This document shows, piece after piece, positions 5,056 through 32,321 of a stretch of 38,564 bases of DNA (position 1 is its first letter; each line of letters begins with the position of its first letter). The position numbers and the translations under genes are program-made. The DNA lies in the UHGV virus genome UHGV-1336581; one strand, given 5' to 3'. Source of the DNA: a virus. The notes beneath the pieces are model-generated. The model saw nothing but the letters and a program-made list of their open reading frames with translations. It had not been told where the DNA came from and ran no database searches.

Positions 5056-5532
5056 ATGCAGGCACTAAATTCCCAGCGTAAAGCTTTCCTTGATATGGTG
5101 GCATGGTCAGAAGGAACGGATAACGGGCGACAACCGACACGTAACCACGGTTATGACGTTATTGTTGGTGGTGAACTGTTTACTGATTACTCCGATCACC
5201 CTCGTAAACTTGTCACGCTAAACCCAAAACTCAAATCAACAGCAGCCGGGCGCTACCAGCTTCTTTCCCGTTGGTGGGATTCCTATCGTAAGCAGCTTGG
5301 CCTGAAAGACTTCTCTCCGAAAAGCCAGGACGCTGTGGCATTGCAGCAGATTAAAGAGCGTGGCGCTTTACCGATGATTGATCGCGGTGATATTCGTCAG
5401 GCAATTGACCGTTGCAGCAATATCTGGGCTTCACTGCCGGGCGCTGGTTATGGTCAGTTCGAGCATAAGGCTGACAGCCTGATTGCAAAATTCAAAGAAG
5501 CAGGCGGAACGGTCAGAGAGATTGAGGTATGA
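5056..5532 (+). CDS. R: Endolysin, lambda R-type lytic transglycosylase
   Basis: Near-identity over the whole length to lambda R as I recall it (NSQRKAFLDMVAWSEGTDNGRQPTRNHGYDVIVGGELFTDYSDHPRKLVTLNPKLKS...). Confidence 0.9.
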   Translation: MQALNSQRKAFLDMVAWSEGTDNGRQPTRNHGYDVIVGGELFTDYSDHPRKLVTLNPKLKSTAAGRYQLLSRWWDSYRKQLGLKDFSPKSQDAVALQQIKERGALPMIDRGDIRQAIDRCSNIWASLPGAGYGQFEHKADSLIAKFKEAGGTVREIEV

Positions 5533-6790
5533 GCAGAGTAACCGCGATTATTTCCGCTCTGGTTACCCGAACCGCGACAAACCCTATACCGAAGACCTGG
5601 GGAAAATCACTTTCCGCCCGTCCATCACAGCTTATGTGGTGGGAGATGACTGCTTTGACCAGCGCGATCGCCTGATTGACGCGCTGAATAAACCCGGTCC
5701 CGGCACGCTTGTCCATCCGACTTACGGTGAGCTGAAAGTCTGTGTTGACGGGGAAGTTCGGGTCAGCACATCGAAGAGTGAAGGGCGTATTGTCCGCTTT
5801 GACCTGAAGTTTGTCGAAGCGGGAGAACTCTCTTACCCCACTTCAGGTGCGGCGACGGCGCAGACGCTGATGTCATCCTGTTCTGCACTGGATGACTGCA
5901 TCAGTGACAGCTTCAGTGGTTTCAGTATCGATGGCGTGGCAGATTTTGTGCAGAACGACGTCGTCGGTAATGCCAGCACAATGCTTGGGTATGTTTCTGA
6001 TGCGATGAAAGTGGTGGATTCTGCCGTATCGGATGCCGCCAGACTGTTGCAGGGGGATATCTCGGTACTTCTGCCGCCGCCATCGTCAGGCAAAAATTTC
6101 GTTGAGCAGGTGCAGAAAATGTGGCGTACCGGGAAACGCCTTTATGGTAACGCCAGCGACCTGGTCACCATGATCAAAACGCTTTCCGGTGTCAGCCTCG
6201 GCAGCGATCTGCAACCGCGCGGCGTCTGGAAAACGGACAGTAAAACCACCGCCACGGCGACGCAGCAGCGTAACGTGGTTGCCAGCACCCTTCGTACGAC
6301 CGCAATCAGCGAAGCGGCGTATGCCGTCACCCGATTGCCTGCGCCAACAACTTCCGCGGTGATGCAGAATGCCGCAGTGGGGCAGGCAACAACACCCGCG
6401 CAGAGCACTGGCTGGCCTTCCGTCACGCATCCGGCACTGAACAATGCACCGGCGGTGAAAAGCACGGTTGACCTGCCGACGTGGGAAGAACTGACTGACA
6501 TTCGCGACACACTGAATACGGCAATTGATAAGGAGTTGTCCCGAACAACCAGTGATGCGCTGTTTCTGGCGCTGCGCCGGGTGAAAGCAGATCTGAATGC
6601 GGATATCAACACGCGCCTTGAACAGTCTGCACGGATCATTCAGCGCACGCCGGATGAGGTTTTACCCGCGCTGGTGCTGGCGGCGACCTGGTTTGATAAC
6701 GCGGCGCGTGACGCGGACATTATCCGGCGTAATGCCATTACGCATCCCGGCTTTGTGCCGGTGATCCCTCTGAAGGTGCCAGTGCAATGA
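5483..6790 (+). CDS. Mu gpN-like tail DNA circulation protein, 5'-truncated at a deletion junction
   Basis: Tail-protein-like sequence begins about 5564 (YPNRDKPYTEDLGKITF...GPGTLVHPTYGEL) in a different frame from the Rz remnant; the ORF's first ~25 codons overlap R and Rz and are unlikely to be native. Followed by the tightly coupled baseplate genes. Confidence 0.5.
   Translation: MQNSKKQAERSERLRYEQSNRDYFRSGYPNRDKPYTEDLGKITFRPSITAYVVGDDCFDQRDRLIDALNKPGPGTLVHPTYGELKVCVDGEVRVSTSKSEGRIVRFDLKFVEAGELSYPTSGAATAQTLMSSCSALDDCISDSFSGFSIDGVADFVQNDVVGNASTMLGYVSDAMKVVDSAVSDAARLLQGDISVLLPPPSSGKNFVEQVQKMWRTGKRLYGNASDLVTMIKTLSGVSLGSDLQPRGVWKTDSKTTATATQQRNVVASTLRTTAISEAAYAVTRLPAPTTSAVMQNAAVGQATTPAQSTGWPSVTHPALNNAPAVKSTVDLPTWEELTDIRDTLNTAIDKELSRTTSDALFLALRRVKADLNADINTRLEQSARIIQRTPDEVLPALVLAATWFDNAARDADIIRRNAITHPGFVPVIPLKVPVQ
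5529..5566 (+). pseudogene. Rz spanin 5' remnant (first ~12 codons only)
   Basis: ATGAGCAGAGTAACCGCGATTATTTCCGCTCTGGTTA encodes MSRVTAIISALV, the start of lambda Rz (ATGA overlap with R stop); similarity ends abruptly near 5566. From memory of lambda Rz, not aligned. Confidence 0.5.
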
Positions 6791-8839: not shown

Positions 8840-9884
8840 ATTTCAGCGCCCGACGCTGGCAGAAAATATCAGTATGCTCCGTAACGATTTATTCGCCAGG
8901 CTGGACGTCAGCGACACGCTCCGGCGCATGGATGAAGACGTGCGGGCAAAGGTGTATGCGGCGGTGCTGCATACGGTTTACGGTTACATCGATTATCTGG
9001 CAATGAACATGCTGCCTGACCTGTGCGATGAGTCCTGGCTGGCGCGACATGCTGCGATGAAACGGTGTCCGCGCAAGGGGGCCACGGCTGCCAGCGGGTA
9101 TATGCGCTGGGAAGGTGTCAGCGATGGCCTGAAGGTGACCGCCGGGAGTGTTATTCAGCGCGATGACCTGGTGCAGTACACGGCAACTGCCGATGCAACC
9201 AGCTCCGGTGGTGTCCTGCGCGTGCCGATCGCCTGCTCAAGTGCAGGCGCGGTCGGTAACGCTGACGACGGTACGTCATTAATCCTGGTCACGCCGGTCA
9301 ATGGTCTGCCGTCTTCCGGCGTGGCAGATACACTGACAGGCGGATTTGATACTGAAGAGCTGGAAACGTGGCGCGCCCGCGTCATTGAGCGGTATTACTG
9401 GACGCCGCAGGGCGGGGCTGACGGGGACTATGTCGTCTGGGCTAAAGAAGTGCCCGGCATTACCCGCGCATGGGCATACCGTCACTGGATGGGAACGGGG
9501 ACAGTCGGTGTGATGATTGCCAGCAGTGACCTGATTAATCCCATTCCGGAAGAATCAACGGAAACGGCGGCAAGACAACATATCTGGCCACTGGCCCCGG
9601 TGGCAGGCTCTGATTTGTATGTGTTCAGGCCGGTGGCACATACGGTGGATTTTCATATCCGCGTGACGCCGGACACACCAGAAATACGGGCTGCCATTAC
9701 CGCGGAGTTGCGTTCGTTCCTGCTGCGTGATGGTTATCCGCAGGGAGAACTGAAGGTATCGCGTATCAGTGAGGCGATTTCCGGTGCGAACGGGGAATAC
9801 AGCCATCAGTTGCTTGCACCGGTGGACAATATCTCCATTGCGAAAAACGAACTGGCGGTACTGGGGACGATTTCATGGACGTGA
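8826..9884 (+). CDS. Baseplate J-like protein (Mu gp47 / JayE-like)
   Basis: 352-aa protein with the size and position of baseplate J; followed by a YmfQ-like gene and tail fibre genes as in e14. Confidence 0.7.
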
Positions 9885-10459
9885 CAAACGATGATTACAT
9901 CCGCCTGTTATCGGCACTGTTGCCGCCCGGTCCGGCGTGGTCAGCCAGCGATCCGGCGATTGCCGGTGCGGCACCGTCATTAACCCGTGTTCATCAGCGT
10001 GCGGATGCCCTGATGCGGGAGCTGGATCCGCGCACCACCACTGAACTGATAAACCGCTGGGAGCGTCTGTGCGGTCTGCCGGATGAATGTATTCCGGCGG
10101 GAACGCAGACCCTTCGCCAGCGTCAGCAACGGCTGGATGCGAAGGTTAACCTGGCGGGCGGCATCAACGAGGATTTTTACCTTGCACAGCTTGCTGCCCT
10201 GGGGAGACCAGACGCCACCATCACGCGATACGACAAAAGCACGTTCACCTGCTCATCTGCATGTACTGACGCTGTGAACGCGCCGGAATGGCGGTATTAC
10301 TGGCAGGTCAACATGCCAGTCGCCACCAACACCACCTGGATGACATGTGGCGATCCCTGTGATTCCGCACTGCGTATCTGGGGCGACACAGTTGTCGAGT
10401 GTGTGCTTAACAAACTCTGCCCGTCGCATACCTACGTAATTTTTAAATATCCGGAGTAA
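9875..10459 (+). CDS. Tail protein, YmfQ / Mu gp48-like
   Basis: 194-aa protein directly upstream of the tail fibre gene, overlapping the J-like gene stop. Confidence 0.6.
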
Positions 10460-10462
10460 TCC

Positions 10463-11113
10463 ATGCATCGTATAGACACGAAAACCGCGCAGAAGGATAA
10501 GTTCGGCGCGGGTAAGAACGGTTTTACCCGTGGTAACCCCCAGACCGGCACGCCTGCCACCGTTCTGGATGATGACTACTTTGACATGTTGCAGGAAGAA
10601 CTTTGTAGCGTTGTTGAGGCATCCGGTGCCAGTCTGGAGAAGGCGCAGCACGACCAGCTGCTTACCGCGCTTCGTGCGCTGCTGTTAAGCCGCAAGAATC
10701 CGTTTGGCGATATCAAATCGGATGGCACCGTGAAAACGGCTCTCGAAAACCTTGGTTTGGGAGAAGCGGCGAAAAGGGATGTAGGCACAGGAGAAAATCA
10801 GATACCGGATATGTCAGCCTGGAAAAGAAATCCGAGTTCTAATCGCTGGAGAAAATTGCCTGATGGAACCATCATTCAAATGGGAATATCAGCATCAGGG
10901 CCATTAGGCTCACCTGTAAATATCACCCTGCCGATATCTTTCAGCAATACCAATTATTGTGTTGTTGCATCGTACGATAATGCACGGTCAGATGTGTCAA
11001 CAATGGTTAGTTTTGCAGCGTTACCTGTTTCACCATCGCAATTTTCCCTGATGTCATCTGTGACTGAGCAAGGAATAAATCCTTTTGCTTACTGGATTGC
11101 TTTTGGAGATTAA
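10463..11113 (+). CDS. Tail fibre protein: constant N-terminal part fused to variable C-terminal segment (current orientation of the invertible region)
   Basis: The ORF crosses the left recombination site near 10741-10766 (...[10 protein letters not shown]...); the part downstream lies inside the invertible segment. Confidence 0.7.
10741..10766. repeat. Invertase crossover site, left (gix/pix-like, inside tail fibre gene)
   Basis: TCTCGAAAACCTTGGTTTGGGAGAA is an imperfect inverted copy of the site at 12636-12661; 14 contiguous bases identical (TTGGTTTGGGAGAA). Confidence 0.65.
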
Positions 11114-11116
11114 TAA

Positions 11117-11536
11117 ATGGACAGATACTTCTATTCACAAAAAGAAAATGGTTTTTTTACCGATTTAAATAAAGCACCTTCAGATGTTGTTGAGATAACC
11201 ACGGATGAATGGCTGTTACTACTGGATGGTCAGGATAATGGCATGAAAATAGTCAGCAATCAGGAGGGATATCCGGTTTTGACAGAGCAACCACCTTTAT
11301 CAAAAGAAAACCTTATTGCATTGGCGGATTTGAAAAAAAGAAAACTTATTAATGAAGCCAACGAGCACATGAACAGCAGACAATGGCCTGGTAAAGCGGC
11401 TATTGGTCGTCTGAAAAGTGAGGAACTGGCGCAATATAATTTGTGGCTGGATTATCTGGACGCACTGGAACTGGTTGATACCTCCAGTGCTCCAGATATT
11501 GAATGGCCTACGCCTCCGGCAGTTCAGGCCAGATGA
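11117..11536 (+). CDS. Tail fibre assembly protein (Tfa, active-orientation copy)
   Basis: C-terminal ...VDTSSAPDIEWPTPP motif typical of Tfa chaperones; directly follows the fibre gene. Confidence 0.7.
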   Translation: MDRYFYSQKENGFFTDLNKAPSDVVEITTDEWLLLLDGQDNGMKIVSNQEGYPVLTEQPPLSKENLIALADLKKRKLINEANEHMNSRQWPGKAAIGRLKSEELAQYNLWLDYLDALELVDTSSAPDIEWPTPPAVQAR

Positions 11537-12113
11537 CATCCGGCGCGGTGCTGGTATCTGTTGCCGTCACCGCGTCAATGTAATCCAGCACAGCGTTAAG
11601 TCTGGTTGTTTCTGCCTGCGTCAGTTTACGTCCGGCCTGTAATTTCAGCTGAATCAGACTAATGGAAGCCATTGCTGCATCAATCAGTGACTGGCGCTGT
11701 GCTTCTGCCGCGTCTACTGCGGCATTATGCTGTGCCTCAGTATCTGTCACCCATTTCTCACCATCCCATTTATCGTATGGCGTTAACGGGACGATAGTTG
11801 TTGTATTTTCAGGGTAATCACCCGGAGTTGTGATTTCTTTTGATTCTCCCGTTTCGGTGTTATAGACAACTTCACCGCGATGGTCTGGCACATATTCCCA
11901 TGAGTTTAAATCTGCCGAACGGCAGATTGCATAACCAGCCTTATGTGTTCCAGGAGCATCTAAACAGGAATATGCAGGGATACCGACACCCACAGCAAGA
12001 TATTCAGTTGATGCAGAAATATACTCCCGTATCTCACTGTCATAGTTATAAACGGTAATCTCTCCTGCCTTTGTGGCAATAAATTTACTATTTAAGATGG
12101 CGTTATACATCAT
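11508..12113 (-). CDS. Tail fibre assembly protein (alternate Tfa inside the invertible segment)
   Basis: C-terminal ...TDTSTAPDVIWPELPEA; 3' end overlaps the plus-strand tfa convergently, as in Gin/Pin/Cin invertible regions. Confidence 0.7.
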   Translation of the reverse strand: MMYNAILNSKFIATKAGEITVYNYDSEIREYISASTEYLAVGVGIPAYSCLDAPGTHKAGYAICRSADLNSWEYVPDHRGEVVYNTETGESKEITTPGDYPENTTTIVPLTPYDKWDGEKWVTDTEAQHNAAVDAAEAQRQSLIDAAMASISLIQLKLQAGRKLTQAETTRLNAVLDYIDAVTATDTSTAPDVIWPELPEA

Positions 12114-12688
12114 GCAGCCCTCACAATGTAATTAAATGAAATATTACGTGGGCGTGTCTCTGCTGCACCGACAATACTGGTACTCAACCCCGTCGCTGTT
12201 CGTTTGTTATTTTTATTTCCTTCAATCAGACAGTTGTAATCATCATTACCAATTAACGAATTAGTGGCATCAATACCGTCCGGGGACAAGGCATTAGTTG
12301 TAGAACTTAAAGTCAGCATCTCGTCTGAACTTGGAAGATTTTTTAATGGTGTTTCATTGCGAGAAATACCCGCGTAAAAAAAGGACTCATGCCTGTGCGC
12401 TTCAAAAGAGTCATCCTGAAGACTTAGCAAGGTACGTCCCGCATCCACTCCACGCCCGTCATCCCAGCCACGAATAAACTCACCACGTAAATCAGGCAAT
12501 TTATTTGTCGGATAAGCCTTTGCCAGTTCCGGGTATTCTTCAGCAGAAAAAGCGGCACCGTTGCATTTCAGCCAGCCTGTTGGCGGAGTGGCGGAAGGCC
12601 ACGGAACAGGCACGCCAACGGGTAATGCCGAACCTTCTCCCAAACCAACGTTTATGAAAATGCAGAAATAACGAGCAAATGGCATCAT
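12110..12688 (-). CDS. Alternate tail fibre C-terminal segment (silent in this orientation)
   Basis: Minus-strand ORF whose 5' end abuts the right recombination site; the GLGEG junction mirrors GLGEA of the expressed fibre. Codons upstream of the crossover site are not a real N-terminus. Confidence 0.6.
   Translation of the reverse strand: MMPFARYFCIFINVGLGEGSALPVGVPVPWPSATPPTGWLKCNGAAFSAEEYPELAKAYPTNKLPDLRGEFIRGWDDGRGVDAGRTLLSLQDDSFEAHRHESFFYAGISRNETPLKNLPSSDEMLTLSSTTNALSPDGIDATNSLIGNDDYNCLIEGNKNNKRTATGLSTSIVGAAETRPRNISFNYIVRAA
12636..12661. repeat. Invertase crossover site, right (gix/pix-like, just upstream of pin)
   Basis: TTCTCCCAAACCAACGTTTATGAAAA; its reverse complement matches the left site; lies immediately 5' of the invertase gene. 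Confidence 0.65.
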
Positions 12689-13269
12689 TCCTGCTTTTGT
12701 CAGGGATATCTACCATGCTTATTGGCTATGTACGTGTGTCAACAAATTACCAGAACACAGATCTACAACGTAATGCGCTGAACTGTGCAGGATGCGAGCT
12801 GATTTTTGAAGACAAGATAAGCGGTACAAAGTCCGAAAGGCCGGGACTGAAAAAACTGCTCAGGACATTATCGGCAGGTGACACGCTGGTGGTCTGGAAA
12901 CTGGACCGACTGGGGCGCAGTATGCGGCATCTTGTCGTGCTGGTGGAGGAGTTGCGCGAACGAGGCATCAACTTTCGTAGTCTGACGGATTCAATTGATA
13001 CCAGTACCCCAATGGGGCGCTTTTTCTTTCATGTGATGGGGGCCCTGGCTGAAATGGAACGAGAACTGATTGTTGAACGAACAAAAGCTGGACTGGAAGC
13101 TGCTCGCGCACAGGGACGAATTGGTGGACGTCGTCCCAAACTTACACCAGAACAATGGGCGCAGGCCGGACGATTAATTGCAGCAGGAATTCCTCGCCAG
13201 AAGGTGGCGATCATCTATGATGTTGGTGTATCGACACTGTATAAGAAGTTTCCGGTCGGAGATAAATGA
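12679..13269 (+). CDS. pin: Serine recombinase, DNA invertase Pin/Gin/Hin family
   Basis: MLIGYVRVSTNYQNTDLQRNAL...GDTLVVWKLDRLGRSM...HTH C-terminus; near-identical to e14 Pin as I recall it. Real start probably the MLIGY Met about 12 codons in. Confidence 0.9.
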   Translation: MASFLLLSGISTMLIGYVRVSTNYQNTDLQRNALNCAGCELIFEDKISGTKSERPGLKKLLRTLSAGDTLVVWKLDRLGRSMRHLVVLVEELRERGINFRSLTDSIDTSTPMGRFFFHVMGALAEMERELIVERTKAGLEAARAQGRIGGRRPKLTPEQWAQAGRLIAAGIPRQKVAIIYDVGVSTLYKKFPVGDK

Positions 13270-13450
13270 AACCGTAGCATGTCGTATGCAAGATCGTGCG
13301 CGGTTGGCTGGTGAATGTTCGATAGTTCGAGCAATTAATAATTTCCAACCGTTATTGATTTTACGTGTTTTTGTATGAGAGGATTTGCACCTTCTGTAAC
13401 CGACCTTCCATGGCGGCACACTACTGTCTCTAGCACTACTATGTGCAAAA
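13267..13450 (+). repeat. Cassette-boundary repeat, copy A (about 180 bp, starts at the pin stop codon)
   Basis: GAAACCGTAGCATGTCGTATGCAAGATCGTGC...GGCTGGTGAA...GATAG...TTCCAACCGTTAT...GATTTT...TGAGAGGATTT...CCATGGC...GTCTCT...CTATGTGC; aligns along its length with copy C. Confidence 0.7.
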
Positions 13451-13519
13451 AGCTGACGTTTCTATTTTTTTGATTAATGCTCAAGTTTATTTTTCAACGT
13501 TAGCAGGAGCTATCTTAAA

Positions 13520-15856
13520 TTAATCAAAAAGGTCATCCTCCCTCAATCCAAGCCACTTTTCGAGATGCATAAGCAGTATTTTCAGGGCTTCTTCATACTC
13601 TGGGAATTCGTTTAGGTTAATCGAGTCAATTCTAGCTTTGGCAACATCTATGCCAATAAAATCGGCAATTGTTTCTTTGTTGAAACTGTTGTGAGGGGTG
13701 GATACCCTGTCACCATATGTGTAGCTGGTACCTCGGTGCATCAAGCGAGAGATCACGGCTGCGAAACCTTGGTTGGTTTGAATTACTTTCATCACCCACT
13801 CACGCGGTTCATCTATTGAATTCGTATAATCTTTCCAGCGATAAAGCTGATATATGAGATTAGGCTCGGTGAGCAGTGTGTTACCGTCTGCTGCGCGGCC
13901 CCTAATCAATCGCAACCATTCAGCCTTCATTTCCGTAATGGTGTTTAGATCTAACGCTGGCTCGAAGACACCGCTATCCCTATTTTCTCGATCGTCTGGA
14001 TCGCTCAGGTGAATAAGGAGCGAGGAGACAGATAACGCTTTAGTTTTACGGAGAGCGTCGAGAGCCAAATCATTTCGAACATCCTCAGGAAGCCGCTTCA
14101 GGAATTTATTTGTCGCTCGCCATGCTGCCACATATGACGGGTCAAAAGCACCATTTTTCGAGCTTGCAAGTTTTTCAGCAAGTATGAACATCCCCGGTAG
14201 CAAAATAGATGCGTTCTCAGTTGGTAATCGATCGACGGATTCGTCGAGCCTGGCTACGAGCGAGTTCAGTAGGCCATCAGCTTCGACGGTAGTGATTTCC
14301 TCATAGAGTTCTCTCTCTGTTGCTGTTGCATCGAGAAAATCAACAAAGCGACGCTCAGACATTTCTCCGATTGTCGTCTGAAGTTCGAAGTAACGAGGAA
14401 AGTAACGTGATGTGCATACTCGTTTCTCCGCCAGCCACTGGAGATGGAAGCCGTCTGCATAATGTGTTCCTCCATATGCCCATTCGAGAGGAGGAAATAA
14501 GTCTTTGAGCGTGTCACGAACGATATCGCGGCGTTTCTCCGGCACGATCTCAAGAAGCTTCTTAGCTGCTTCTTGGTCTAACTTCTGCCGGTTATTAAAT
14601 GAGTAATGTCTTTCTTGGAGAACCAATTCCCGCTCACGGAACAGTGTAGCGTGGAGATCTGGCTCAAAGACCCGGAGTGTCTCAAGAAGTAAGAAATCAA
14701 CAATGTTTACCTCGAATACATTGCCAATAACATGTAGTGGCATATTTATAGCAATAGACGAGATGAGGCGACGTGCATCGCGCATGTTTTTAAGCCAAGG
14801 CTGGATGCAACCAATGTAAGCGTTACCCCAGCGTGTCTGAGAGAACCCGTTTGCCTCGATTGCGTAAGGGTCTGCAATTTTAGCGAGTTCCTCCTCAAAC
14901 ATACGATGCACGAGCGATGCCGGGACTGCAGGAAGATCAAAACTAGCTTGCACGATTTTCTCAAGGAAGGCTCGACCATCACCGTCAGCAACTGGATCGA
15001 GTGCCCTCTCTACGATACTGGTCTGGAACAGTAGCACAAAAACAATGTTTGGCAGATTAGCATTCGCTTTTACTTGACGAAGTAGCATCCTGATCTGCTC
15101 TGGCTCGAGTCGGTCAATGTCGTCGACGAAGACGACCAGCGGACGCTCAAGTTCTCGAAGACGAGCCTCCAGCGATCTGCGTACCTTGTCGAGTGGCTCG
15201 CCACTATGGTCACGCCCGAGATATGTGAGTATGCGTCCAACAAGAGGAATTCCGACTGAGAGTAGTGAAAGAACAGCCGCAACCCCTGCGGCTGTGGGAA
15301 GGTCAAAGCCAATAGCTGACGCGATCGCTACAACGGAAGCATTAGTTAGCACTGTAGAGACTAGGAAGCTTGAACTACCGACCTCTTTAAGAGGTTTGCC
15401 GACCCCTATGAGGATTGCTCCGTAGCGTCGTAGTGCTTCGGCACGGTCAAGCTCAGCCTTCGAATGTTCACCTCTTAGGGAATTTGCTATCTGACCAAAT
15501 AGCGCGCCAGTGATGGCATCACCGTCTCCCCATTGCCATGGATTGAAATCGAGCCAGTTCGCCCCGTTGTTCTTGGCATCGAGCTGTTCGGTAATGAGAT
15601 TTTTTAGTGATGATTTGCCAAAGCCCCATCCTCCTCGGATAGCAAACACTCGGCCTTCGCGCAAACTAAGCTCTGAAAGCACATCAGCTATGCGAGCTGC
15701 AAATTCGGTCCTTCTAAGGCGATCTTCGGATGCTCGCCGAATTGGGGCCTCCGCCCCGATCCCCTCGTCCGGTCGCTCGTTCTTTATCACGTCAGCATTA
15801 GGCTTCGCGCGACGATGAGCGCGCCATGCCGTCAAGCGGAACAATAGCTTATTCAT
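13520..15856 (-). CDS. KAP-family P-loop NTPase with membrane insertion (Tmn-like candidate defence protein)
   Basis: Walker A GGWGFGKSS about 80 aa from the N-terminus, followed by hydrophobic helices inserted in the NTPase domain (VLTNASVVAIASAIGF...VLSLLSVGIPLVGRIL), a KAP hallmark; 778 aa. Confidence 0.7.
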   Translation of the reverse strand: MNKLLFRLTAWRAHRRAKPNADVIKNERPDEGIGAEAPIRRASEDRLRRTEFAARIADVLSELSLREGRVFAIRGGWGFGKSSLKNLITEQLDAKNNGANWLDFNPWQWGDGDAITGALFGQIANSLRGEHSKAELDRAEALRRYGAILIGVGKPLKEVGSSSFLVSTVLTNASVVAIASAIGFDLPTAAGVAAVLSLLSVGIPLVGRILTYLGRDHSGEPLDKVRRSLEARLRELERPLVVFVDDIDRLEPEQIRMLLRQVKANANLPNIVFVLLFQTSIVERALDPVADGDGRAFLEKIVQASFDLPAVPASLVHRMFEEELAKIADPYAIEANGFSQTRWGNAYIGCIQPWLKNMRDARRLISSIAINMPLHVIGNVFEVNIVDFLLLETLRVFEPDLHATLFRERELVLQERHYSFNNRQKLDQEAAKKLLEIVPEKRRDIVRDTLKDLFPPLEWAYGGTHYADGFHLQWLAEKRVCTSRYFPRYFELQTTIGEMSERRFVDFLDATATERELYEEITTVEADGLLNSLVARLDESVDRLPTENASILLPGMFILAEKLASSKNGAFDPSYVAAWRATNKFLKRLPEDVRNDLALDALRKTKALSVSSLLIHLSDPDDRENRDSGVFEPALDLNTITEMKAEWLRLIRGRAADGNTLLTEPNLIYQLYRWKDYTNSIDEPREWVMKVIQTNQGFAAVISRLMHRGTSYTYGDRVSTPHNSFNKETIADFIGIDVAKARIDSINLNEFPEYEEALKILLMHLEKWLGLREDDLFD

Positions 15857-16427
15857 CCCACAACATCTCCAAAAGTATATGTTTCAAGCGTTCTATTGTT
15901 AGAAGCCTCACCGATTGGACTTTGTCTACGACAGCTAACTGAAAACAGCTCGTTGCTGAAATTGCAGGCCAGTATAGCGGTTCTGCCTACTCAACGTGAA
16001 ATGGCTCGTGGGCAACTACATCAACTGAGCGAGAATACTAAGGTGAAACTGGGTGTGTGAATTGGTGCAAGAGAAATGCTTCCCATAATTCAAGATATCC
16101 CAATATAAGTACATTCCGAATGTCTGCTTCATACCTTGAGATATTCGACAAACTTTTTATGGAAGAAAGGCATTTGTGTCTTGTTGGTATATGGATGCTG
16201 TGAAAGAGCAGAATGCCACTTGTTGAGGGAGATAGATGATGCACAGCAAATTAAGCTGATGAAAAAAACAAAAAGCTACATCTTCTGTGGACTTTCATGT
16301 CACCAAGAGTAGCAACTCCCTAGCGTCTCATCACCGTCTGGTTGGTGTCCTGCTGAGACTGCTAACTTCCTGTTTTTTGATGTTGTATTTACACTGTCCA
16401 ATCATGATTGGCGGGCTGGCGGGAGTT

Positions 16428-16465
16428 GAAACCGTAGCACGTCGTATGCAAGATCGTGCTGCGGT
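16428..16465 (+). repeat. Cassette-boundary repeat, copy B (truncated, about 38 bp core)
   Basis: GAAACCGTAGCACGTCGTATGCAAGATCGTGCTGCGG matches the first ~35 bp of copies A and C, then diverges; lies just 3' of the minus-strand GIY-YIG gene. Confidence 0.6.
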
Positions 16466-16486: not shown

Positions 16487-17356
<870 letters not shown>

Positions 17357-19107: not shown

Positions 19108-19220
19108 TTCTAACGTCTCCCCAAGTCTACTCAAGTATTTAAAAACCTCTTATAATCCGCATGTTAGCGCCCCTTTTAGTCTTTTGACGTCTACTTAAGT
19201 ACCCCAAAATCTACAGTCAA

Positions 19221-19242
19221 TTGGGGGTACTTTTGGGGGTAT
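19221..19242 (+). repeat. TTGGGGGTACTTTTGGGGGTAT tandem motif (candidate integrase arm-type site)
   Basis: Identical 22-mer recurs at 38399-38420; inverted copies of TGGGGGTAC near 19197 and 19263 flank it; lies directly upstream of int. Confidence 0.5.
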
Positions 19243-19273
19243 TTGCTGTTCGGTTTAGTGGAGGTACCCCCAA

Positions 19274-20488
19274 GTGAAACTCAATGCCCGTCAAATAGAC
19301 ACTGCCAAGCCAAAAGAGAAGGCTTACAAGCTGGCTGATGGTGGTGGTCTGTATCTCCTGGTAAAACCTAGTGGAGGAAAATACTGGCGCTTTAAATATC
19401 GTGTAGCTGGTAAAGAGAAGCTGTTAGCACTAGGTGTGTATCCTGAAGTTACCTTGGCTGATGCTCGTGCAAAACGTGAAGAAGCTAAAAGGGGTATCGC
19501 TGGGGGTATCGATCCGATGGAAGCGAAACGAGAGGAAAAGATTGCCCGGGAAACGCAGTTAAACAATACCTTCAAAGATATTGCCCTTGAGTGGCACAGC
19601 AGCAAATTAAAAAAATGGTCTGCTGGTTATGCTTCAGATATCCTCGAAGCCTTCAACAAAGATGTGTTCCCTTACATTGGCAAAAAACCAATTGCCGAAA
19701 TCAAACCACTTGAACTTCTGAATGTGCTGCGACGCATCGAGGGGCGCGGTGCTACAGAAAAAGCCAAAAAAGTGAGGCAGCGGTGCGGGGAAGTTTTCCG
19801 CTATGCAATAGTCACTGGTCGCGCAGAGTATAACCCTGCCCCAGATCTTACTAGCGCGATGCAAGGCCATGAATCTAATCATTATCCTTTCCTCACAGCC
19901 AAAGAATTGCCTGATTTTTTCAAGGCATTGTCCAGTTACTCAGGAAGTGCATTGGTTGTTATGGCGGCTCGTCTACTGATTATCACTGGTTTGCGAACTG
20001 GCGAACTGCGCGGTGCATTATGGGATGAAATCGATCTCAACAAGGCTATCTGGGAGATACCTGCTTCACGGATGAAAATGCGTCGCCCTCATGTGGTGCC
20101 TTTGTCTAAGCAGGCTCTTTCTCTTATTGGGCAGATTAAAGAATTAACTGGTAATTATCCGCTTATGTTTCCCGGCCGTAATGATCCAAGGAAAACAATG
20201 AGCGAGGCTAGCATAAACCAAGTATTTAAACGCATCGGCTATAACGGAAAGGTTACTGGTCATGGATTCCGGCACACCATGAGCACGATTTTACATGAGC
20301 AGGGCTATAACACCGCGTGGATAGAAACGCAGCTTGCACACGTTGATAAGAACTCAATTCGTGGCACGTACAATCATGCGCAATATCTGGACGGGCGGCG
20401 CGAGATGCTCCAGTGGTACGCCGACTATATGGATTCGCTCGAACATGGCGGTAACGTGGTGCATGGCAAGTTCGGAAAATGTGGATGA
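19274..20488 (+). CDS. int: Tyrosine integrase, P4-type (N-terminal arm-binding domain)
   Basis: LNARQIDTAKPKEKAYKLADGGGLYLLVKPSGGKYWRFKYRVAGKEKLLALGVYPEVTLADARAKREEAK is the P4-integrase N-terminal signature; C-terminal HxxR...Y catalytic region (GHGFRHTMSTIL...HV...RGTYNH); GTG start, adjacent to the tRNA fragment. Confidence 0.9.
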   Translation: MKLNARQIDTAKPKEKAYKLADGGGLYLLVKPSGGKYWRFKYRVAGKEKLLALGVYPEVTLADARAKREEAKRGIAGGIDPMEAKREEKIARETQLNNTFKDIALEWHSSKLKKWSAGYASDILEAFNKDVFPYIGKKPIAEIKPLELLNVLRRIEGRGATEKAKKVRQRCGEVFRYAIVTGRAEYNPAPDLTSAMQGHESNHYPFLTAKELPDFFKALSSYSGSALVVMAARLLIITGLRTGELRGALWDEIDLNKAIWEIPASRMKMRRPHVVPLSKQALSLIGQIKELTGNYPLMFPGRNDPRKTMSEASINQVFKRIGYNGKVTGHGFRHTMSTILHEQGYNTAWIETQLAHVDKNSIRGTYNHAQYLDGRREMLQWYADYMDSLEHGGNVVHGKFGKCG

Positions 20489-20610
20489 CTGGTTGCGTAT
20501 ACAGTAGTAGACTTTGAGCGACGAAAGAAAAGGCTGTGTCTAGGGTCGCTCCCGAAAATCCGTACACCTCGACGGACTGGTACAGCCACTACAGTAGAGG
20601 ACGCTGAGGT

Positions 20611-21414
20611 GTGCGTATGATTGATATTCATGCCGAATTAAACGAATACAAAAAAGATTTTATTTCTTTACGTGAATTTCTTGAGGTCGTGCTTAAGGTC
20701 GCTGGTGATGATTATGATGTTTCAGATGTCATAACTTGGATACTCAGGAGAATAAGCGGAGAACATATCCGCCTGTACACAGTAAATGAATTTAAGCTGT
20801 TGGAATCTTTTTGTAACCCGTATCGGGATGAATTTGATTATGATGTTCTTTATAGAAATCTGAATGCGGTTCGGAAACGTGGTTGTTTACCTGGTGAGAG
20901 GGATGAAAATGGTTTTCTGGTGTCCGGTTATTGGGAAGATCCCGAATTTGAGAACATTGGATTTATAAGGGGTGAAATTTTCGCAATTTTTCCCGATGTC
21001 CTTGACGCGTTAACGAAGCTGGAAGGCGCTAACTCTTCTGAAAATGACGAGGCACAAGGACGCGATATTGAAAAGAAAGAGTTGCGTACAGAGGATGATT
21101 TATTATCCCAAATCGCAATGCTGGAAAAAGAAAACGCAGAGTTAAGGGCAAGGATAGAGCAGTTAGAGCAAGAGCGCCCGATACACTTATATAAATACTG
21201 GGATAAAGACCCATTAGCTAAGGCTATTGAGATTAGAAACAGAGAGTGGGCCAATTACGATCCAGAAAATGATTTTGCCACCAGGGGAAATCAAGAAGCG
21301 ATAACCAGGGAGCTTAAGCAGTGGGGGGCAAGTAATGCACTTGCAACGCTCATAGAGAGGACTGCCTGCCCTATTAACCGAGACAACAGCCAAAAGAACG
21401 CAAAGCCGGATTAA
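20611..21414 (+). CDS. Hypothetical protein (coiled-coil segment)
   Basis: 267-codon ORF between int and alpA with a heptad-like stretch (LSQIAMLEKENAELRARIEQLEQE); no family recognised. Confidence 0.5.
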   Translation: MRMIDIHAELNEYKKDFISLREFLEVVLKVAGDDYDVSDVITWILRRISGEHIRLYTVNEFKLLESFCNPYRDEFDYDVLYRNLNAVRKRGCLPGERDENGFLVSGYWEDPEFENIGFIRGEIFAIFPDVLDALTKLEGANSSENDEAQGRDIEKKELRTEDDLLSQIAMLEKENAELRARIEQLEQERPIHLYKYWDKDPLAKAIEIRNREWANYDPENDFATRGNQEAITRELKQWGASNALATLIERTACPINRDNSQKNAKPD

Positions 21415-21428
21415 CGCACCATACCGCA

Positions 21429-21572
21429 TACCCTGAGGGTGATTTACTGTTACCCTGAGGGTATTTTTTTATCTTCCCCGTCAATTTTACCATCACCCTT
21501 AGGGTAGATTTCCTCCCGATTACCATCACCCTTAGGGTTAATTTCCTTCCGGTAACCATTAGGCCTGAGGGT
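21429..21572. promoter_or_regulatory. Five copies of interrupted palindrome (A)CCCT(G/T)AGGG(T) upstream of alpA; candidate operator array
   Basis: TACCCTGAGGGT at about 21429 and 21451, CACCCTTAGGGT at about 21494 and 21527, GCCTGAGGGT at about 21562. Confidence 0.45.
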
Positions 21573-21641
21573 ATGAAAATATTCGTTATTTCTGTGCCAT
21601 GATTACCTCGTCAAATTGAGTAGACGTTATGAGGTAAATAT

Positions 21642-21839
21642 ATGTCAAATACGCTTATTCGTTTAACAGAAGTTCAGCGTAGAACTGGATATAGCAAGGC
21701 ATGGATTTATCACCTTATGGGGCAAGGTAAATTTCCTGCATCAGTTAAAATTGGCTCGCGAGCTATTGCTTTCGTTGAGAGTGAAATTGACGAGTGGATT
21801 AATCAGCGTATTGCGGAATCACGCGGAACAGCTACCTGA
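21642..21839 (+). CDS. alpA: AlpA-family transcriptional regulator
   Basis: 65-aa HTH protein, LIRLTEVQRRTGYSKAWIYHLMGQGKFPASVKIGSRAIAFVESEIDEWI matches the AlpA/prophage CP4-57 regulator family. Confidence 0.85.
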   Translation: MSNTLIRLTEVQRRTGYSKAWIYHLMGQGKFPASVKIGSRAIAFVESEIDEWINQRIAESRGTAT

Positions 21840-21916
21840 TTAAATGGCTACGGGGCTATTGCCCCCAGCTATCCACCAGCAAATAAAAGTAACTTAATTC
21901 GATAGCAGGAGTTTTT

Positions 21917-22717
21917 ATGAAATTTCCAAAAACGCCCGTACAGGGGCGGGGCTTCGTTCGGCCTGAAAACCAGAATCTGCAAAATTTCGGCGAAATTATC
22001 CCGATTATTTCCGGCGTTATTGGCGGGAGTGAAACCACTATTGTTAGCGCCAGAGCGTTACATAAGGCGTTAGGTGTAGGGCGCGTTTTCCGTTCGTGGA
22101 TCAAGGGGCGCATTGAAGAATACGGGTTCACGGAAGGCGTGGATTATGAGGTTGTTGAATATTTGAGCCGACCCGATCCGGTGAGCGCAAAATCTCGCCA
22201 GCAAACCGCTCTTGAGTACATCATCACAGTGAACATGGCGAAAGAACTGGCGATGGTCGAACGTACCGAACAGGGCCGCGCCGTTCGCCAGTACTTTATC
22301 AAATGCGAGGAGGAGCTACACAAGGTTGCGCCTGTTCGTTCCGCAGCGTTACGCCGGGAACTGAAAGCCCGTATCACAGTTGCCAGCTACTTTAAGCCAA
22401 TGTGTGCCGCGCTGGAGGCGTACCGGGCTGAACTGGGTAAAAACACACTCCAGCACCACTACACCACGGAAGCGAGCATGCTGGCGCGTATCGTGCTGGG
22501 TGGCATGACTGCAAAACAGTGGGCACTGGCGAACGGCATTACAGGCGAACCACGCGACCACATGAGCACGTTGCAGCTTGAGCACCTTTCTTACCTTGAG
22601 CAGAGCAATATCACGCTGATTGAGTTAGGCCAGGACTACCACCAGCGGAAGGCTGAATTAATTCGTCTTTCGCAGCGTTGGTTAGCCCGTCGCATGGAGG
22701 AAAACAGCCATGTGTAA
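21917..22717 (+). CDS. Phage antirepressor-like DNA-binding protein (Ant/Rha/KilA-N-type N-terminal domain)
   Basis: N-terminal TIVSARALHKALGVGRVFRSWIKGRIEEYGFTEGVDYEV resembles antirepressor-type DNA-binding domains; domain assignment is tentative. Confidence 0.45.
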   Translation: MKFPKTPVQGRGFVRPENQNLQNFGEIIPIISGVIGGSETTIVSARALHKALGVGRVFRSWIKGRIEEYGFTEGVDYEVVEYLSRPDPVSAKSRQQTALEYIITVNMAKELAMVERTEQGRAVRQYFIKCEEELHKVAPVRSAALRRELKARITVASYFKPMCAALEAYRAELGKNTLQHHYTTEASMLARIVLGGMTAKQWALANGITGEPRDHMSTLQLEHLSYLEQSNITLIELGQDYHQRKAELIRLSQRWLARRMEENSHV

Positions 22718-23430
22718 CGCTCTGACCGTTACAAAAAGAGAAAGCGCCCCGTTGCCGGAGCGCCTTTGTGAACGAATAGCCTACTGCGCCATATTGCTTA
22801 CTGTCTACGAGGCAGATTATAGCGTTGTGGTCGCACAGAGTGAAGGCGCTGATCACCGTTACTACAGCACGCCAGAAATGCAGAATATTTTGCTGCAAAA
22901 TGTCGTTGATCACACTGTCCGAAAAGCAAAAAATTTTGCTGGTGGCGCGACTGATGCGATTTTGTCAGGTCGCCAGGTGCTGATCAATCTGATGTCTGAT
23001 TTCGTTCTGGATAAAACAAAGGCGACCGCAGAGGGCCGCCAGTGGGAAAGCTACATACTTGAACGCATCGCCAACAATGCCAGATTTGCGGCTGGTGGGC
23101 AATGTGTCAGCTTTGCACCAATGACTCTATGTTTAACTGAGGGTCATTATGGTGAATATGCTGGCTTGCTGGTGGGCTATTCCTGCTCTTTAACATCGCC
23201 ATGCCGCGATGTTTTCCAGGTATGCGATCCCATTTTTGTGCGCCTGTACTCTTTAAGGAATTTCTCAAGGATAAACGCACAGGGCGCGAATCTGTTTGAC
23301 TCATGCTCGTACGCTATCTTTCTGCGCTGTCTTTTCCGTGCCGGTGATGGTGTATTGGTTGATTCTTTGTTGGTCATGGCGCTGCCCTGTAAAACGATGC
23401 ACCGTAGTCCCTCACACCACGGCGCTGGTG
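22710..23430 (+). CDS. Hypothetical protein, probably disrupted (5' part of a 485-codon open frame)
   Basis: First ~150 codons look protein-like; downstream the same frame becomes Cys/Ser/Arg-rich and runs through a convergent minus-strand gene and a divergent promoter region without a stop. End coordinate is arbitrary. Confidence 0.3.
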
Positions 23431-23434
23431 ATGG

Positions 23435-23614
23435 TTACTCCTGTTCTTTGGCCTTGCGGCGCTGGCGGCGTTTGATCTCGCCTTTTGCAGCAGTAACTAA
23501 AAAACCAGCGGTACTTTCGCCAGGTTCTTTAAGTTGCTCAATATCATCCATTACTTCATGTGGGATTCTGACAGTTGTCATTTGTGATTTTGCGTTCTTT
23601 GCACCAGTTGCCAT
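23435..23614 (-). CDS. Small ribbon-helix-helix-like DNA-binding protein
   Basis: MATGAKNAKSQMTTVRIPHEVMDDIEQLKEPGESTAGFLVTAAKGEIKRRQRRKAKEQE has a beta-strand/helix pattern like CopG/Arc; divergent from the gene starting at 23802. Confidence 0.4.
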   Translation of the reverse strand: MATGAKNAKSQMTTVRIPHEVMDDIEQLKEPGESTAGFLVTAAKGEIKRRQRRKAKEQE

Positions 23615-23801
23615 TTCTGGATCTCCTAAAAATTGGTGTATGTCAGTATACGCAAAAAAAATGATAAAAAAAGGCTTGAAGTGTATTTCACCAGTAAGTA
23701 AATTAAAAAGCAAAGGTGAAATACACCTAAAAGAGCAACGCCCCGCAGTGCTCGCAACACATGCAGGGCGTCTAACCAAACCGTTAAATGAGGTAACGAT
23801 T

Positions 23802-24167
23802 ATGGCTGGAACACAGCATACTCAAACTCACCCTAAATTTATATACACCTTCCTGGCGGTGCACCGTGATTGCATGGCTGACGGTAAAAACACTGTACAC
23901 GTAGCCGCCGATACGCTGGTTGATGCCTGCAAGATGCTCAATGACATGGGCTATATCTCGGCAACATGGAAAGGGCGCGAAGAAAACACGCTGTTTATTC
24001 AGAAATGCGAAAACAATTTTATATGGCGTTTTATCGCCCTGAGTACGGCACAACCGCGCGTGATTCACATCGAGGCCACCAGCGAACAGGAAGCACGCCA
24101 GCAATCTCCTGATGGCTGCGTGATGGTATTCACTGCCCGTATTCGCCAGGAGGTGGAGCATGTGTAA
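23802..24167 (+). CDS. Hypothetical protein
   Basis: Internal ATG of the long open frame, preceded by GAGGTAACGATT (RBS-like) and a divergent AT-rich promoter region; 122 codons; stop overlaps next start. Confidence 0.5.
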   Translation: MAGTQHTQTHPKFIYTFLAVHRDCMADGKNTVHVAADTLVDACKMLNDMGYISATWKGREENTLFIQKCENNFIWRFIALSTAQPRVIHIEATSEQEARQQSPDGCVMVFTARIRQEVEHV

Positions 24168-24384
24168 TGCAACATGGCCTGATGCAGCGGTAGACACTAT
24201 CAAAACGCTGATGGATTCACTTATTGAGATTTCTGCTATCGCTGGTGTGGCGCATAAACACGCAGCCAGAGAATCAGAATGCATCTTCCATTATTTAGCA
24301 TTTGTGCAGCTAAAAGCCGATCAGGCACTGGATAAGGCCGGAAAAATTATCATGGCTGATGTGCAGGAGGTGCACTATGCATAA
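24160..24384 (+). CDS. Hypothetical small protein
   Basis: 74 codons, start overlaps upstream stop, stop overlaps downstream start. Confidence 0.45.
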   Translation: MCNATWPDAAVDTIKTLMDSLIEISAIAGVAHKHAARESECIFHYLAFVQLKADQALDKAGKIIMADVQEVHYA

Positions 24385-24742
24385 CCTGTCAATTTCTGAC
24401 CTTAACAGCATTCAGTTTGACGAGAAATTTACCGGGCAGTTGCTGGTCAATGTGGAGAACGGGCGCATAGTGCGTAATTATCACCTGCCGGATGGTGCAA
24501 TTGCCGGAAGCGTTGAAGCATTGCTGGAACTGGCGGAACGTGCGCGACTGATTAAGCCGTCAACGAGTCATCACGATGATGATCTGCATTTTACCGGACG
24601 TATGGTGAGTCACTACGAAAACGGCGTCGAGGTATCCTGCGAACGGCTGCGTGATGATTGCTGTTTCGGCACACTGCCGGAATTTATCGAGTTGCTGACC
24701 AGTTGCGGTTATCAGGTCATTCAGGGGGGTAAACATGCGTGA
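24377..24742 (+). CDS. Hypothetical protein (paralogue of the 24961 gene)
   Basis: ATG preceded by AGGAGG; N-terminus MHNLSISDLNSIQFDEKFTGQLLVNVENGRIV resembles the 24961 protein. Confidence 0.5.
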   Translation: MHNLSISDLNSIQFDEKFTGQLLVNVENGRIVRNYHLPDGAIAGSVEALLELAERARLIKPSTSHHDDDLHFTGRMVSHYENGVEVSCERLRDDCCFGTLPEFIELLTSCGYQVIQGGKHA

Positions 24743-25161: not shown

Positions 25162-25165
25162 AACC

Positions 25166-28304: not shown

Positions 28305-28334
28305 AAAACCTCGCCAGACAGCGGGGTTTTTCTG
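28305..28334 (+). terminator. Rho-independent terminator
   Basis: AAAACCTCGC-CAGACA-GCGGGGTTTT hairpin (10-bp stem, one mismatch) followed by a T run. Confidence 0.5.
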
Positions 28335-28408
28335 TCTAAAAAGAACTATAAAAACAACATGTAGTGTCGAAGCATTGACGCAAGCACTACATTTAGCGGA
28401 GTACTAAC

Positions 28409-28633: not shown

Positions 28634-28651
28634 CAAGGACGTTACCATCCC

Positions 28652-32310: not shown

Positions 32311-32321
32311 ACAATCCGTGC

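What the first reader, a model, noticed from the sequence alone, without database searches (positions are those of the whole stretch)
10741..12661. Pin-type invertible tail-fibre segment; the orientation present expresses the plus-strand variable domain
Two imperfect inverted 26-bp sites (TCTCGAAAACCTTGGTTTGGGAGAA inside the fibre gene; TTCTCCCAAACCAACGTTTATGAAAA upstream of pin) bracket about 1.9 kb holding two convergent fibre-C-terminus plus tfa sets. The minus-strand set is silent in this orientation. This is a host-range switch retained in a prophage that has lost its heads.
Basis: partly seen in the sequence, partly recalled or inferred. Interest (0 to 1): 0.45.

Follow-up and report, generated by a model that had tools for sequence, protein, structure and literature searches.

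The report
e14-type Pin invertible tail-fibre switch
This is the well-known Pin/P-segment DNA inversion switch of the E. coli e14 prophage family, sitting in a prophage remnant that can no longer build virions; it is real and still flips, but it is ordinary.

Summary
Two 26-bp sites in inverted orientation (10740-10765 and 12635-12660) bracket 1,895 bp. That segment holds two convergent sets, each a tail-fibre C-terminus plus a tail-fibre assembly (tfa) gene. A serine invertase gene (pin, 12715-13269) lies next to it.

Both sites are identical to the pix sites of the E. coli K-12 e14 P segment and fit the gix (Mu) and cix (P1) consensus. Pin is 97% identical to K-12 PinE. Inverting the segment in silico gives an in-frame 275-aa fibre, and that exact gene exists in public assemblies.

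Four pairs or groups of near-isogenic sequences differ only by an exact inversion with breakpoints inside these sites. Two of them carry this window's exact Pin allele and have 100% identical flanks. So the switch still flips.

The prophage lacks terminase, head, sheath, tube and tape-measure genes, so the switch cannot change the host range of any particle made here.

One window-specific oddity is Pin D12Y, three residues after the catalytic serine. None of the 120 closest cluster representatives has Tyr there.

The parts
10463..11113 (+). Tail-fibre gene as expressed in the present orientation (216 aa): a constant N-terminus fused to variable C-terminus A
   Evidence: ORF. Pfam Gp53-like_C at residues 131-215, E 5.9e-13. 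97.7% identical to the 'gp53-like domain-containing protein' of the intact M37H prophage and 57.5% to K-12 StfP.
10463..10752 (+). Constant part of the fibre gene (about 97 codons), outside the invertible segment
   Evidence: It is shared by both fusion products: 216 aa in the present state and 275 aa after in-silico inversion. It is identical in loci of both orientations.
10740..10765 (.). Left crossover site (pixL), CTCTCGAAAACC TT GGTTTGGGAGAA, encoding ..LENLGLGE..
   Evidence: Identical to the K-12 e14 left site. Inversion breakpoints in isogenic pairs fall inside it.
10753..12647 (.). Invertible P-type segment (1,895 bp between the central dinucleotides)
   Evidence: Exact reverse complement in L007 and L013 compared with the window, and in L008 compared with L010 and L011, with 100% identical flanks.
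10766..11113 (+). Variable fibre C-terminus A (Gp53-like), currently expressed
11117..11536 (+). Tail-fibre assembly chaperone gene A (139 aa), co-oriented with cassette A
   Evidence: Pfam Caudo_TAP, E 2.8e-26. 54% identical to K-12 TfaP.
11508..12113 (-). Tail-fibre assembly chaperone gene B (200-201 aa). It overlaps chaperone gene A by 29 nt, tail to tail.
   Evidence: Pfam Caudo_TAP, E 8.8e-32. 90% identical to K-12 TfaE.
12110..12634 (-). Variable fibre C-terminus B (Collar domain), currently not joined to the constant part
   Evidence: Pfam Collar, E 1.4e-15; S_tail_recep_bd, E 4.6e-4, below its cut-off. After inversion it fuses in frame to give a 275-aa fibre. That product is a called gene in L007 and L008.
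12635..12660 (.). Right crossover site (pixR), TTCTCCCAAACC AA CGTTTATGAAAA
   Evidence: Identical to the K-12 e14 right site.
12661..12688 (-). Short leader outside the segment (ATG at 12688 or 12685). It gives the minus-strand cassette a free-standing ORF (192 aa now, 132 aa after inversion).
   Evidence: the ORF listing. PGAP annotates the equivalent 191-aa CDS in M37H. The 132-aa Gp53-like_C gene is called in the inverted loci L007 and L013. It corresponds to StfE/StfE2 of PMC12529663.
12715..13269 (+). pin, a serine DNA invertase (184 aa) carrying D12Y (codon TAC at 12748-12750)
   Evidence: Pfam Resolvase E 1.1e-50 and HTH_7 E 3.6e-15. Identity is 97% to K-12 PinE, 78% to Gin (Mu) and 83% to Cin (P1). 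D12Y.
12733..12804 (.). Presumed Fis-dependent recombinational enhancer inside the 5' end of pin (assigned by position and sequence only)
   Evidence: It aligns with the enhancer annotated at nt 19-90 of cin in P1 AF234172. Identity is 54/72 to cin, 53/72 to gin and 69/72 to K-12 pinE.

Best explanation
This is an allelic copy of the e14 P-segment inversion system, a member of the Hin/Gin/Cin/Pin ('Din') family.

Mechanism, inferred from the family. Pin dimers bind the two 26-bp pix sites. With a Fis-bound enhancer in the first ~90 bp of pin they form an invertasome. They cut both sites at the central TT/AA dinucleotide, rotate 180 degrees and religate, which flips 1,895 bp.

What the sequence shows. 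The constant 97 codons of the fibre gene stay put. In the present orientation they are fused to a Gp53-like C-terminus and followed by its Tfa chaperone gene. In the other orientation they are fused in frame to a Collar-domain C-terminus followed by the second Tfa gene.

What public assemblies show. The segment has flipped recently in lineages that carry this exact element.

Present role, inferred. In intact relatives such as the M37H prophage this is a host-range bet-hedging switch. Here the prophage has lost packaging, head, sheath, tube and tape-measure genes, so the switch cannot alter any virion. It persists either neutrally or because its products benefit the host, as one 2025 study reports for K-12.
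For: Sites: identical to K-12 e14, fit the gix/cix consensus TTnTCnnAAACC-nn-GGTTTnnGAnAA, and only two occur in the window. Enzyme: Resolvase plus HTH_7, with Ser9, Arg7, the helix-B basic trio K46/K47/R50 and Q150/R153/L154 conserved. The last six are the invertase-specific residues named in PMC3798978. Gene order ymfQ-stf-tfa-tfa-stf'-pin is the same as in K-12 e14. In-frame alternative fusion. Inversion in nature: CX07 versus CX15 and JE86-ST05 versus JE86-ST02 differ only by an exact inversion with breakpoints in the shared core. The window, L009 and L012 versus L007 and L013, and L010 and L011 versus L008, have 100% identical flanks and opposite orientation, and all carry the same Pin allele. 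Among 5,426 complete E. coli genomes, 20 match the present arrangement and 29 the synthetic inverted one at 80% coverage or more. Experimental inversion of the K-12 segment is reported in PMC4272514 and PMC12529663. Defective prophage.
Against: Pin carries D12Y at a position that is D, E, H or N in all 119 of the 120 closest cluster representatives that could be scored. The same G-to-T change lies in the presumed enhancer. This Pin may therefore be weakened, and the observed flips might be catalysed in trans by another prophage invertase, as PinQ does in K-12. No sigma-70-like promoter for pin was found by the crude scan. Fis dependence and enhancer function are inferred from homology only. 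No read-level data for this sample were available.
Confidence: 0.9

Rival explanations
1. Domesticated defence switch. In this virion-less remnant the inversion is kept because it changes which free-standing Stf-derived proteins the host makes. After inversion, a 132-aa protein (leader plus Gp53-like domain, the counterpart of K-12 StfE2) would block adsorption of lytic phages. This adds to the mechanism above and does not replace it.
For: PMC12529663 reports that inversion of the K-12 e14 P segment by PinQ or PinE creates StfE2, which blocks T2 adsorption. The window has the same architecture, including the leader ATG outside the segment. The 132-aa ORF is called in inverted copies. The switch is flanked by defence genes: PifA-like at 7.3e-79 and PD-T4-3 at 6.9e-140. 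It is still flipping although it is useless for a virion.
Against: A single study, based mostly on overexpression. The Gp53-like cassette here is only about 57% identical to K-12 StfP, so any target specificity would differ. No promoter was found for the minus-strand ORF, and the AGGA motif abuts the ATG, which is poor spacing for a ribosome-binding site. Recent prophage decay with neutral persistence explains the data equally well.
Confidence: 0.2
2. Frozen relic. The sites and pin are recognisable, but D12Y has inactivated Pin, and in this strain the segment is locked in the present orientation.
For: D12Y is a non-conservative change three residues after the catalytic Ser9. Tyr is absent from the 119 of the 120 closest cluster representatives that could be scored. 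It also alters the presumed enhancer.
Against: Two separate backgrounds carrying exactly this allele occur in both orientations with 100% identical flanks. So inversion happened after the allele arose, though possibly through an invertase acting in trans.
Confidence: 0.08
3. The orientation differences between assemblies come from RecA-dependent recombination between the short inverted repeats, or from assembly artefacts, and not from site-specific inversion.
For: Short-read assemblers can pick either orientation across inverted repeats.
Against: The shared core is only 15-20 nt, too short for efficient homologous recombination. Breakpoints coincide with canonical invertase sites next to an invertase gene. 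Complete long-read genomes (the CX and JE86 series) show the same exact inversion. A mixed population that assembles either way would itself imply inversion. PCR and qPCR evidence exists for K-12.
Confidence: 0.02

Closest known systems
P segment and PinE of the E. coli K-12 cryptic prophage e14 (stfP-tfaP-tfaE-stfE-pinE; Plasterk and van de Putte 1985, cited)
   Same: Both 26-bp crossover sites are identical. Pin is 97% identical. The gene order ymfQ-stf-tfa-tfa-stf'-pin is the same, as is the 29-nt overlap of the tfa genes. The constant fibre N-terminus is nearly identical and TfaE is 90% identical. The orientation matches the MG1655 reference (Gp53-like tip fused, Collar tip unfused).
   Different: Both receptor-binding tips and TfaP are diverged, at 54-57% identity. 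The segment is about 100 bp longer. The rest of the prophage differs: a lambdoid left arm, a different deletion joint, no icd sequence, and PifA-like plus PD-T4-3 genes in place of mcrA downstream of pin. Pin carries D12Y.
G segment and Gin of phage Mu; C segment and Cin of phage P1
   Same: The logic is the same: a constant fibre N-terminus outside the segment, two convergent variable C-terminus plus chaperone sets inside it, and the invertase gene adjacent with the enhancer in its 5' end. Pin is 78% identical to Gin and 83% to Cin. The sites share the consensus.
   Different: The segment is smaller (1.9 kb against 3.0 and 4.2 kb). The fibre is much shorter (216 or 275 aa against about 500 to 1000 aa). 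The variable domains are unrelated (Gp53-like and Collar). The element sits in a defective prophage, not an infectious phage.
Intact prophages and phages with the same module (E. coli M37H prophage, L001; related fibre modules in Shigella phage SfIV, Escherichia phage SKA5 and the P2-like phage pro483)
   Same: M37H carries the whole stf-tfa-tfa-stf'-pin block at 96.7% identity in the same orientation, with all four cassette proteins 97-98% identical.
   Different: M37H retains capsid, connector, sheath, tube and tape-measure genes. The window has none of them. The isolated phages cover only 43-50% of the query.
Hin/hix flagellar phase variation in Salmonella
   Same: Same enzyme subfamily, and the invertase-specific residues are conserved.
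   Different: Hin flips a promoter. This system swaps coding 3' ends by gene fusion.

Membership tests
Din family of Fis-dependent DNA invertase systems (Hin/Gin/Cin/Pin) | Small serine recombinase with an N-terminal resolvase catalytic domain and a C-terminal HTH, about 185-195 aa | tested here: met
   Pfam Resolvase 1.1e-50 and HTH_7 3.6e-15; 184 aa.
Din family of Fis-dependent DNA invertase systems (Hin/Gin/Cin/Pin) | Catalytic Ser (Gin/Pin Ser9) and the surrounding YxRVST motif intact | tested here: met
   MLIGYVRVST is invariant against PinE, Gin and Cin. The adjacent residue 12 is Tyr where 116 of the 119 scored close relatives have Asp or Glu; the effect is unknown.
Din family of Fis-dependent DNA invertase systems (Hin/Gin/Cin/Pin) | Residues specific to enhancer-dependent invertases (Hin K47/R48/K51 on helix B; Q151/R154/L155 in the DNA-binding domain; PMC3798978) | tested here: met
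   Pin K46, K47, R50 and Q150, R153, L154 are conserved with Gin and Cin. The one-residue offset from Hin numbering rests on my recollection of the Hin N-terminus.
Din family of Fis-dependent DNA invertase systems (Hin/Gin/Cin/Pin) | Two 26-bp imperfectly dyad-symmetric crossover sites in inverted orientation, with matching central dinucleotides | tested here: met
   Sites at 10740-10765 and 12635-12660, with central TT and AA. They match gix from Mu and cix from P1, both retrieved here.
Din family of Fis-dependent DNA invertase systems (Hin/Gin/Cin/Pin) | Recombinational enhancer with two Fis sites in cis, located in the 5' part of the invertase gene | tested here: inconclusive
   The stretch that aligns with the annotated cin enhancer is 54/72 identical to cin and 69/72 to K-12 pinE. 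Fis sites were not mapped and function cannot be tested here. One of the three differences from K-12 is the G-to-T change that gives D12Y.
Din family of Fis-dependent DNA invertase systems (Hin/Gin/Cin/Pin) | The segment actually inverts, with both orientations recoverable | tested here: met
   Exact inversions between isogenic sequences, breakpoints inside the sites. Not tested on reads from this sample.
Phage tail-fibre host-range inversion modules (Mu G, P1 C, e14 P) | Constant fibre N-terminus outside the segment; two alternative C-termini, each with a cognate Tfa chaperone gene, both fusing in frame | tested here: met
   216-aa and 275-aa in-frame products. Two Caudo_TAP genes, with Gp53-like_C and Collar tips. 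Both products are called genes in public contigs.
Prophage e14 itself (the K-12 element integrated in icd) | The same prophage backbone and the icd integration site | tested here: not met
   Similarity to the K-12 locus, which includes icd and icdC, is limited to window 9097-13270. The left arm is a different lambdoid module and the cargo downstream of pin differs. Only the baseplate-end, P-segment and pin module is shared.
Shufflons (Rci tyrosine recombinase with multiple sfx sites) | Tyrosine recombinase and more than two crossover sites giving multiple arrangements | tested here: not met
   The recombinase is a serine type, and only two sites are present in the window.

The most novel reading that the evidence does not exclude
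Pin D12Y is catalytically impaired or enhancer-defective, and the flips seen in this lineage are driven in trans by another prophage's invertase. On this reading the remnant's P segment is a host-controlled, recombinase-activated anti-phage device. The 132-aa leader plus Gp53-like product made after inversion would block adsorption, as reported for StfE2 in K-12. It would sit in a defence hot spot beside PifA-like and PD-T4-3 genes.
Probability: 0.12. Interest if true: 0.4.

Novelty: already known. Interest (0 to 1): 0.1.

Why it matters
It matters little beyond correct annotation. The locus should be labelled as an e14-type P segment with pinE. The fibre gene changes length and C-terminus between assemblies of the same strain, which can be mistaken for misassembly or strain difference. 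Two minor points may interest specialists. First, there is a natural Pin allele (D12Y) at a near-invariant acidic position that nevertheless coexists with orientation polymorphism. Second, this is another example of an active fibre switch kept in a prophage that has no virion, next to defence genes, which bears on the recent claim that such switches have been co-opted for phage defence.

Tried and rejected
1. I tried to read Plasterk and van de Putte 1985 (PMC554175), Mehta et al. 2004 (PMC331406) and Johnson 2015 (PMC4384473). None is held. They are cited only through the reference lists of held papers.

2. I looked for data on the Hin residue equivalent to Pin D12 (Asp13) in PMC3798978 and found no mention. 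The effect of D12Y remains unknown.

3. The promoter and terminator scan of 10300-13500 gave no convincing promoter for pin or for the minus-strand ORF (2 found against 5.2 expected). It is uninformative.

4. I searched for extra crossover sites that would make a multi-state, Min- or shufflon-like system. None exist.

5. No tRNA or tmRNA gene is present in the window, so the integration site was not identified.

6. PHROGs and Pfam on the 19-38 kb island found an integrase, a primase-helicase, an AntA domain, a protease-like protein and a weak small-terminase hit, but no clear capsid. My idea that it is a capsid-forming satellite is not supported.

7. I considered and rejected homologous recombination or assembly artefact as the source of the orientation differences (see rival explanations).
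Full report
**1. What is in the sequence**

The fibre ORF runs from 10463 to 11113 (216 aa). It contains the site CTCTCGAAAACC-TT-GGTTTGGGAGAA at 10740-10765. A second site, TTCTCCCAAACC-AA-CGTTTATGAAAA, lies at 12635-12660, 54 nt upstream of the ATG of a 184-aa ORF at 12715-13269.

Read in inverted orientation the two 26-mers agree at 21 of 26 positions and share a perfect 15-nt core. The repeat finder lists them as the best inverted pair in the region (20 nt, 95%).

A 26-mer consensus with up to 3 mismatches is expected 0.00 times in shuffled sequence. The family half-consensus TTNTCNNAAACCNNGGTTT hits only these two places in the whole 38.5-kb window. The system therefore has two sites and two states.

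Between the sites lie four coding pieces:
- a Gp53-like_C fibre tip on the plus strand;
- a Caudo_TAP chaperone gene on the plus strand (11117-11536);
- a second Caudo_TAP gene on the minus strand (11508-12113);
- a Collar-domain fibre tip on the minus strand (12110-12634).

The adjacent ORF has Resolvase and HTH_7 domains.

**2. Does the geometry work as a switch?**

I cut at the central dinucleotides (10752/53 and 12647/48) and reverse-complemented the 1,895 bp between them. This joins the constant 97 codons in frame to the Collar-domain tip. The result is a 275-aa protein reading ...[10 protein letters not shown]|GSALPVGVPVPW....

That protein is not hypothetical. It is a called 275-aa Collar gene in the public contigs L007 and L008.

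**3. Identity with the known system**

The gene order ymfQ-stf-tfa-tfa-stf'-pin matches the annotated e14 prophage of E. coli K-12: ymfQ, ycfK/stfP, tfaP, tfaE, stfE, pinE. Both crossover sites are base-for-base identical to the K-12 sites. The core is the repeat TTGGTTTGGGAGAAGG reported as the e14 P-segment boundary in PMC12529663.

Pin is 97% identical to K-12 PinE, 78% to Gin of Mu and 83% to Cin of P1. I retrieved the gix sites from the Mu record and the cix sites from the P1 record. They give the same design, TTnTCnnAAACC-nn-GGTTTnnGAnAA.

Residues that PMC3798978 names as specific to enhancer-dependent invertases are conserved: the basic trio on helix B and Q/R/L in helix 1 of the DNA-binding domain. 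The first 126 nt of pin differ from K-12 pinE at four positions. The stretch that aligns with the annotated cin enhancer is 69/72 identical to pinE and 54/72 to cin.

The variable parts are diverged from K-12: StfP 57.5%, TfaP 54%, StfE 57% and TfaE 90% identity. They are 97-98% identical to those of an intact prophage in E. coli M37H. This is the usual cassette shuffling of fibre tips.

**4. Does it invert?**

*Complete E. coli genomes.* Of 5,426 genomes, 20 match the present arrangement and 29 match my synthetic inverted arrangement over at least 80% of a 2.9-kb query. That coverage is possible only if the segment is colinear with a flank.

*Near-isogenic E. coli strains.* CX07 and CX15 have the same chromosome length and the same coordinates. 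JE86-ST05 and JE86-ST02 form a second pair. Within each pair the 5.8-kb loci differ by nothing except an exact reverse complement, and the breakpoints lie inside the shared core of the two sites.

*Contigs with this window's exact Pin protein.* It is encoded on at least 15 public contigs.
- L009 and L012 are 100% identical to the window. L007 and L013 have 100% identical flanks (4,052 and 6,636 nt in L007) with the segment inverted.
- A second background, about 1-2.5% diverged, shows the same thing: L010 and L011 against L008.

The element in this window has therefore flipped recently, in two lineages.

Experimental inversion of the K-12 segment is documented by whole-genome sequencing and PCR (PMC4272514) and by qPCR (PMC12529663).

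**5. Context**

The window starts with lambdoid early-late genes: RusA, KilA-N, DUF968, the Q antiterminator, a transglycosylase, a holin and an endolysin. This stretch is 99.5% identical to an E. coli prophage up to position 5565.

Homology to the M37H Mu-like tail module starts at 5564, about 100 nt inside the DNA-circularisation gene. So a single joint has removed terminase, portal, capsid, connectors, sheath, tube and tape measure, all of which M37H retains. What remains is the baseplate, the fibre switch and pin.

No particle can be built from this, so the switch cannot alter host range here. 'Lost its heads' is correct but understates the loss.

**6. Points that qualify the interpretation**

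*The minus-strand set may not be silent.* The minus-strand tip is part of a free-standing ORF (12110-12688) whose ATG lies outside the segment, between pixR and pin. After inversion the same leader heads a 132-aa Gp53-like ORF, which is called in L007 and L013. These correspond to StfE and StfE2 of K-12.

Kirigo et al. report that StfE2 blocks T2 adsorption and that PinQ from another prophage drives the inversion. I found no promoter for this ORF. So 'silent' is plausible but unproven.

*Pin carries D12Y.* The codon is TAC at 12748-12750, three residues after the catalytic Ser9. Among the 120 closest cluster representatives, 119 could be scored: the position is D in 107, E in 9, H in 2 and N in 1, and never Y. 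The same G-to-T change lies in the presumed enhancer.

Both orientations occur among carriers of this allele, so inversion has happened since it arose. I cannot tell whether this Pin or an invertase acting in trans did it.

**7. Verdict**

The system is a textbook one, first described in 1985, and NCBI's annotation pipeline labels it pinE. It is not prophage e14 itself: the backbone and the cargo next to pin differ and no icd sequence is present. The module is the e14 P segment with new fibre-tip alleles.

Novelty: already known. Interest: low. The only leads worth a bench test are the D12Y allele and whether the switch serves phage defence in this remnant.

Noticed in passing
window 12748-12750 (pin codon 12): Pin has Tyr where PinE and Gin have Asp and Cin has Glu, three residues after the catalytic Ser9. 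Of the 119 closest cluster representatives that could be scored, none has Tyr (D 107, E 9, H 2, N 1). The same base change falls in the presumed Fis enhancer. The exact allele is on at least 15 public contigs, in both segment orientations.
   Followed up: yes
window 5483-5600 (joint at 5564/5565): A deletion or recombination joint. Lambdoid lysis genes, 99.5% identical to an E. coli prophage up to 5565, abut a DNA-circularisation gene that lacks about its first 100 nt. All packaging, head, sheath, tube and tape-measure genes are missing. The 435-aa ORF at 5483-6790 is a fusion with a TTG start.
   Followed up: partly
window 13520-15856 (-) and 16487-17311 (-): Two anti-phage defence genes lie directly downstream of pin: a KAP-family NTPase matching PADLOC PifA (7.3e-79) and a GIY-YIG protein matching PD-T4-3 (6.9e-140). 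In K-12 the same position holds mcrA. In M37H it holds PD-T4-3 plus a restriction-modification pair. The end of the prophage next to pin looks like a defence-cargo hot spot.
   Followed up: partly
window 13306-16434: The roughly 3-kb PifA-like block is an insertion relative to M37H. It ends with 109 nt (16326-16434) that are 90% identical to the sequence around the 3' end of ssrA in the M37H locus (L001 18934-19045), which suggests an att-like repeat.
   Followed up: no
window 19110-38481: A 19.4-kb block that is absent from the otherwise matching contigs L008 and L010, where position 19109 joins directly to 38482. It begins with a P4-type tyrosine integrase (19274-20488). It also carries an AntA-domain protein, a primase-helicase-like AAA_25 protein, an SDH/ClpP-like protease and a weak small-terminase hit. 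It is probably a separate integrative element or satellite; no clear capsid gene was found.
   Followed up: partly
window 11508-11536, and 11446-11463 / 11572-11589: The two tfa genes converge and overlap by 29 nt, as in K-12. An 18-nt inverted repeat (83%) reflects the conserved C-terminal Tfa motif (LDYLDAL / LDYIDAV) encoded on opposite strands.
   Followed up: no
L014 1-972: One contig with the same Pin allele and the same minus-strand cassette carries a different plus-strand cassette (146-aa Tfa; only 126 nt around pixL match the window at 93%). This looks like cassette replacement within the lineage.
   Followed up: no
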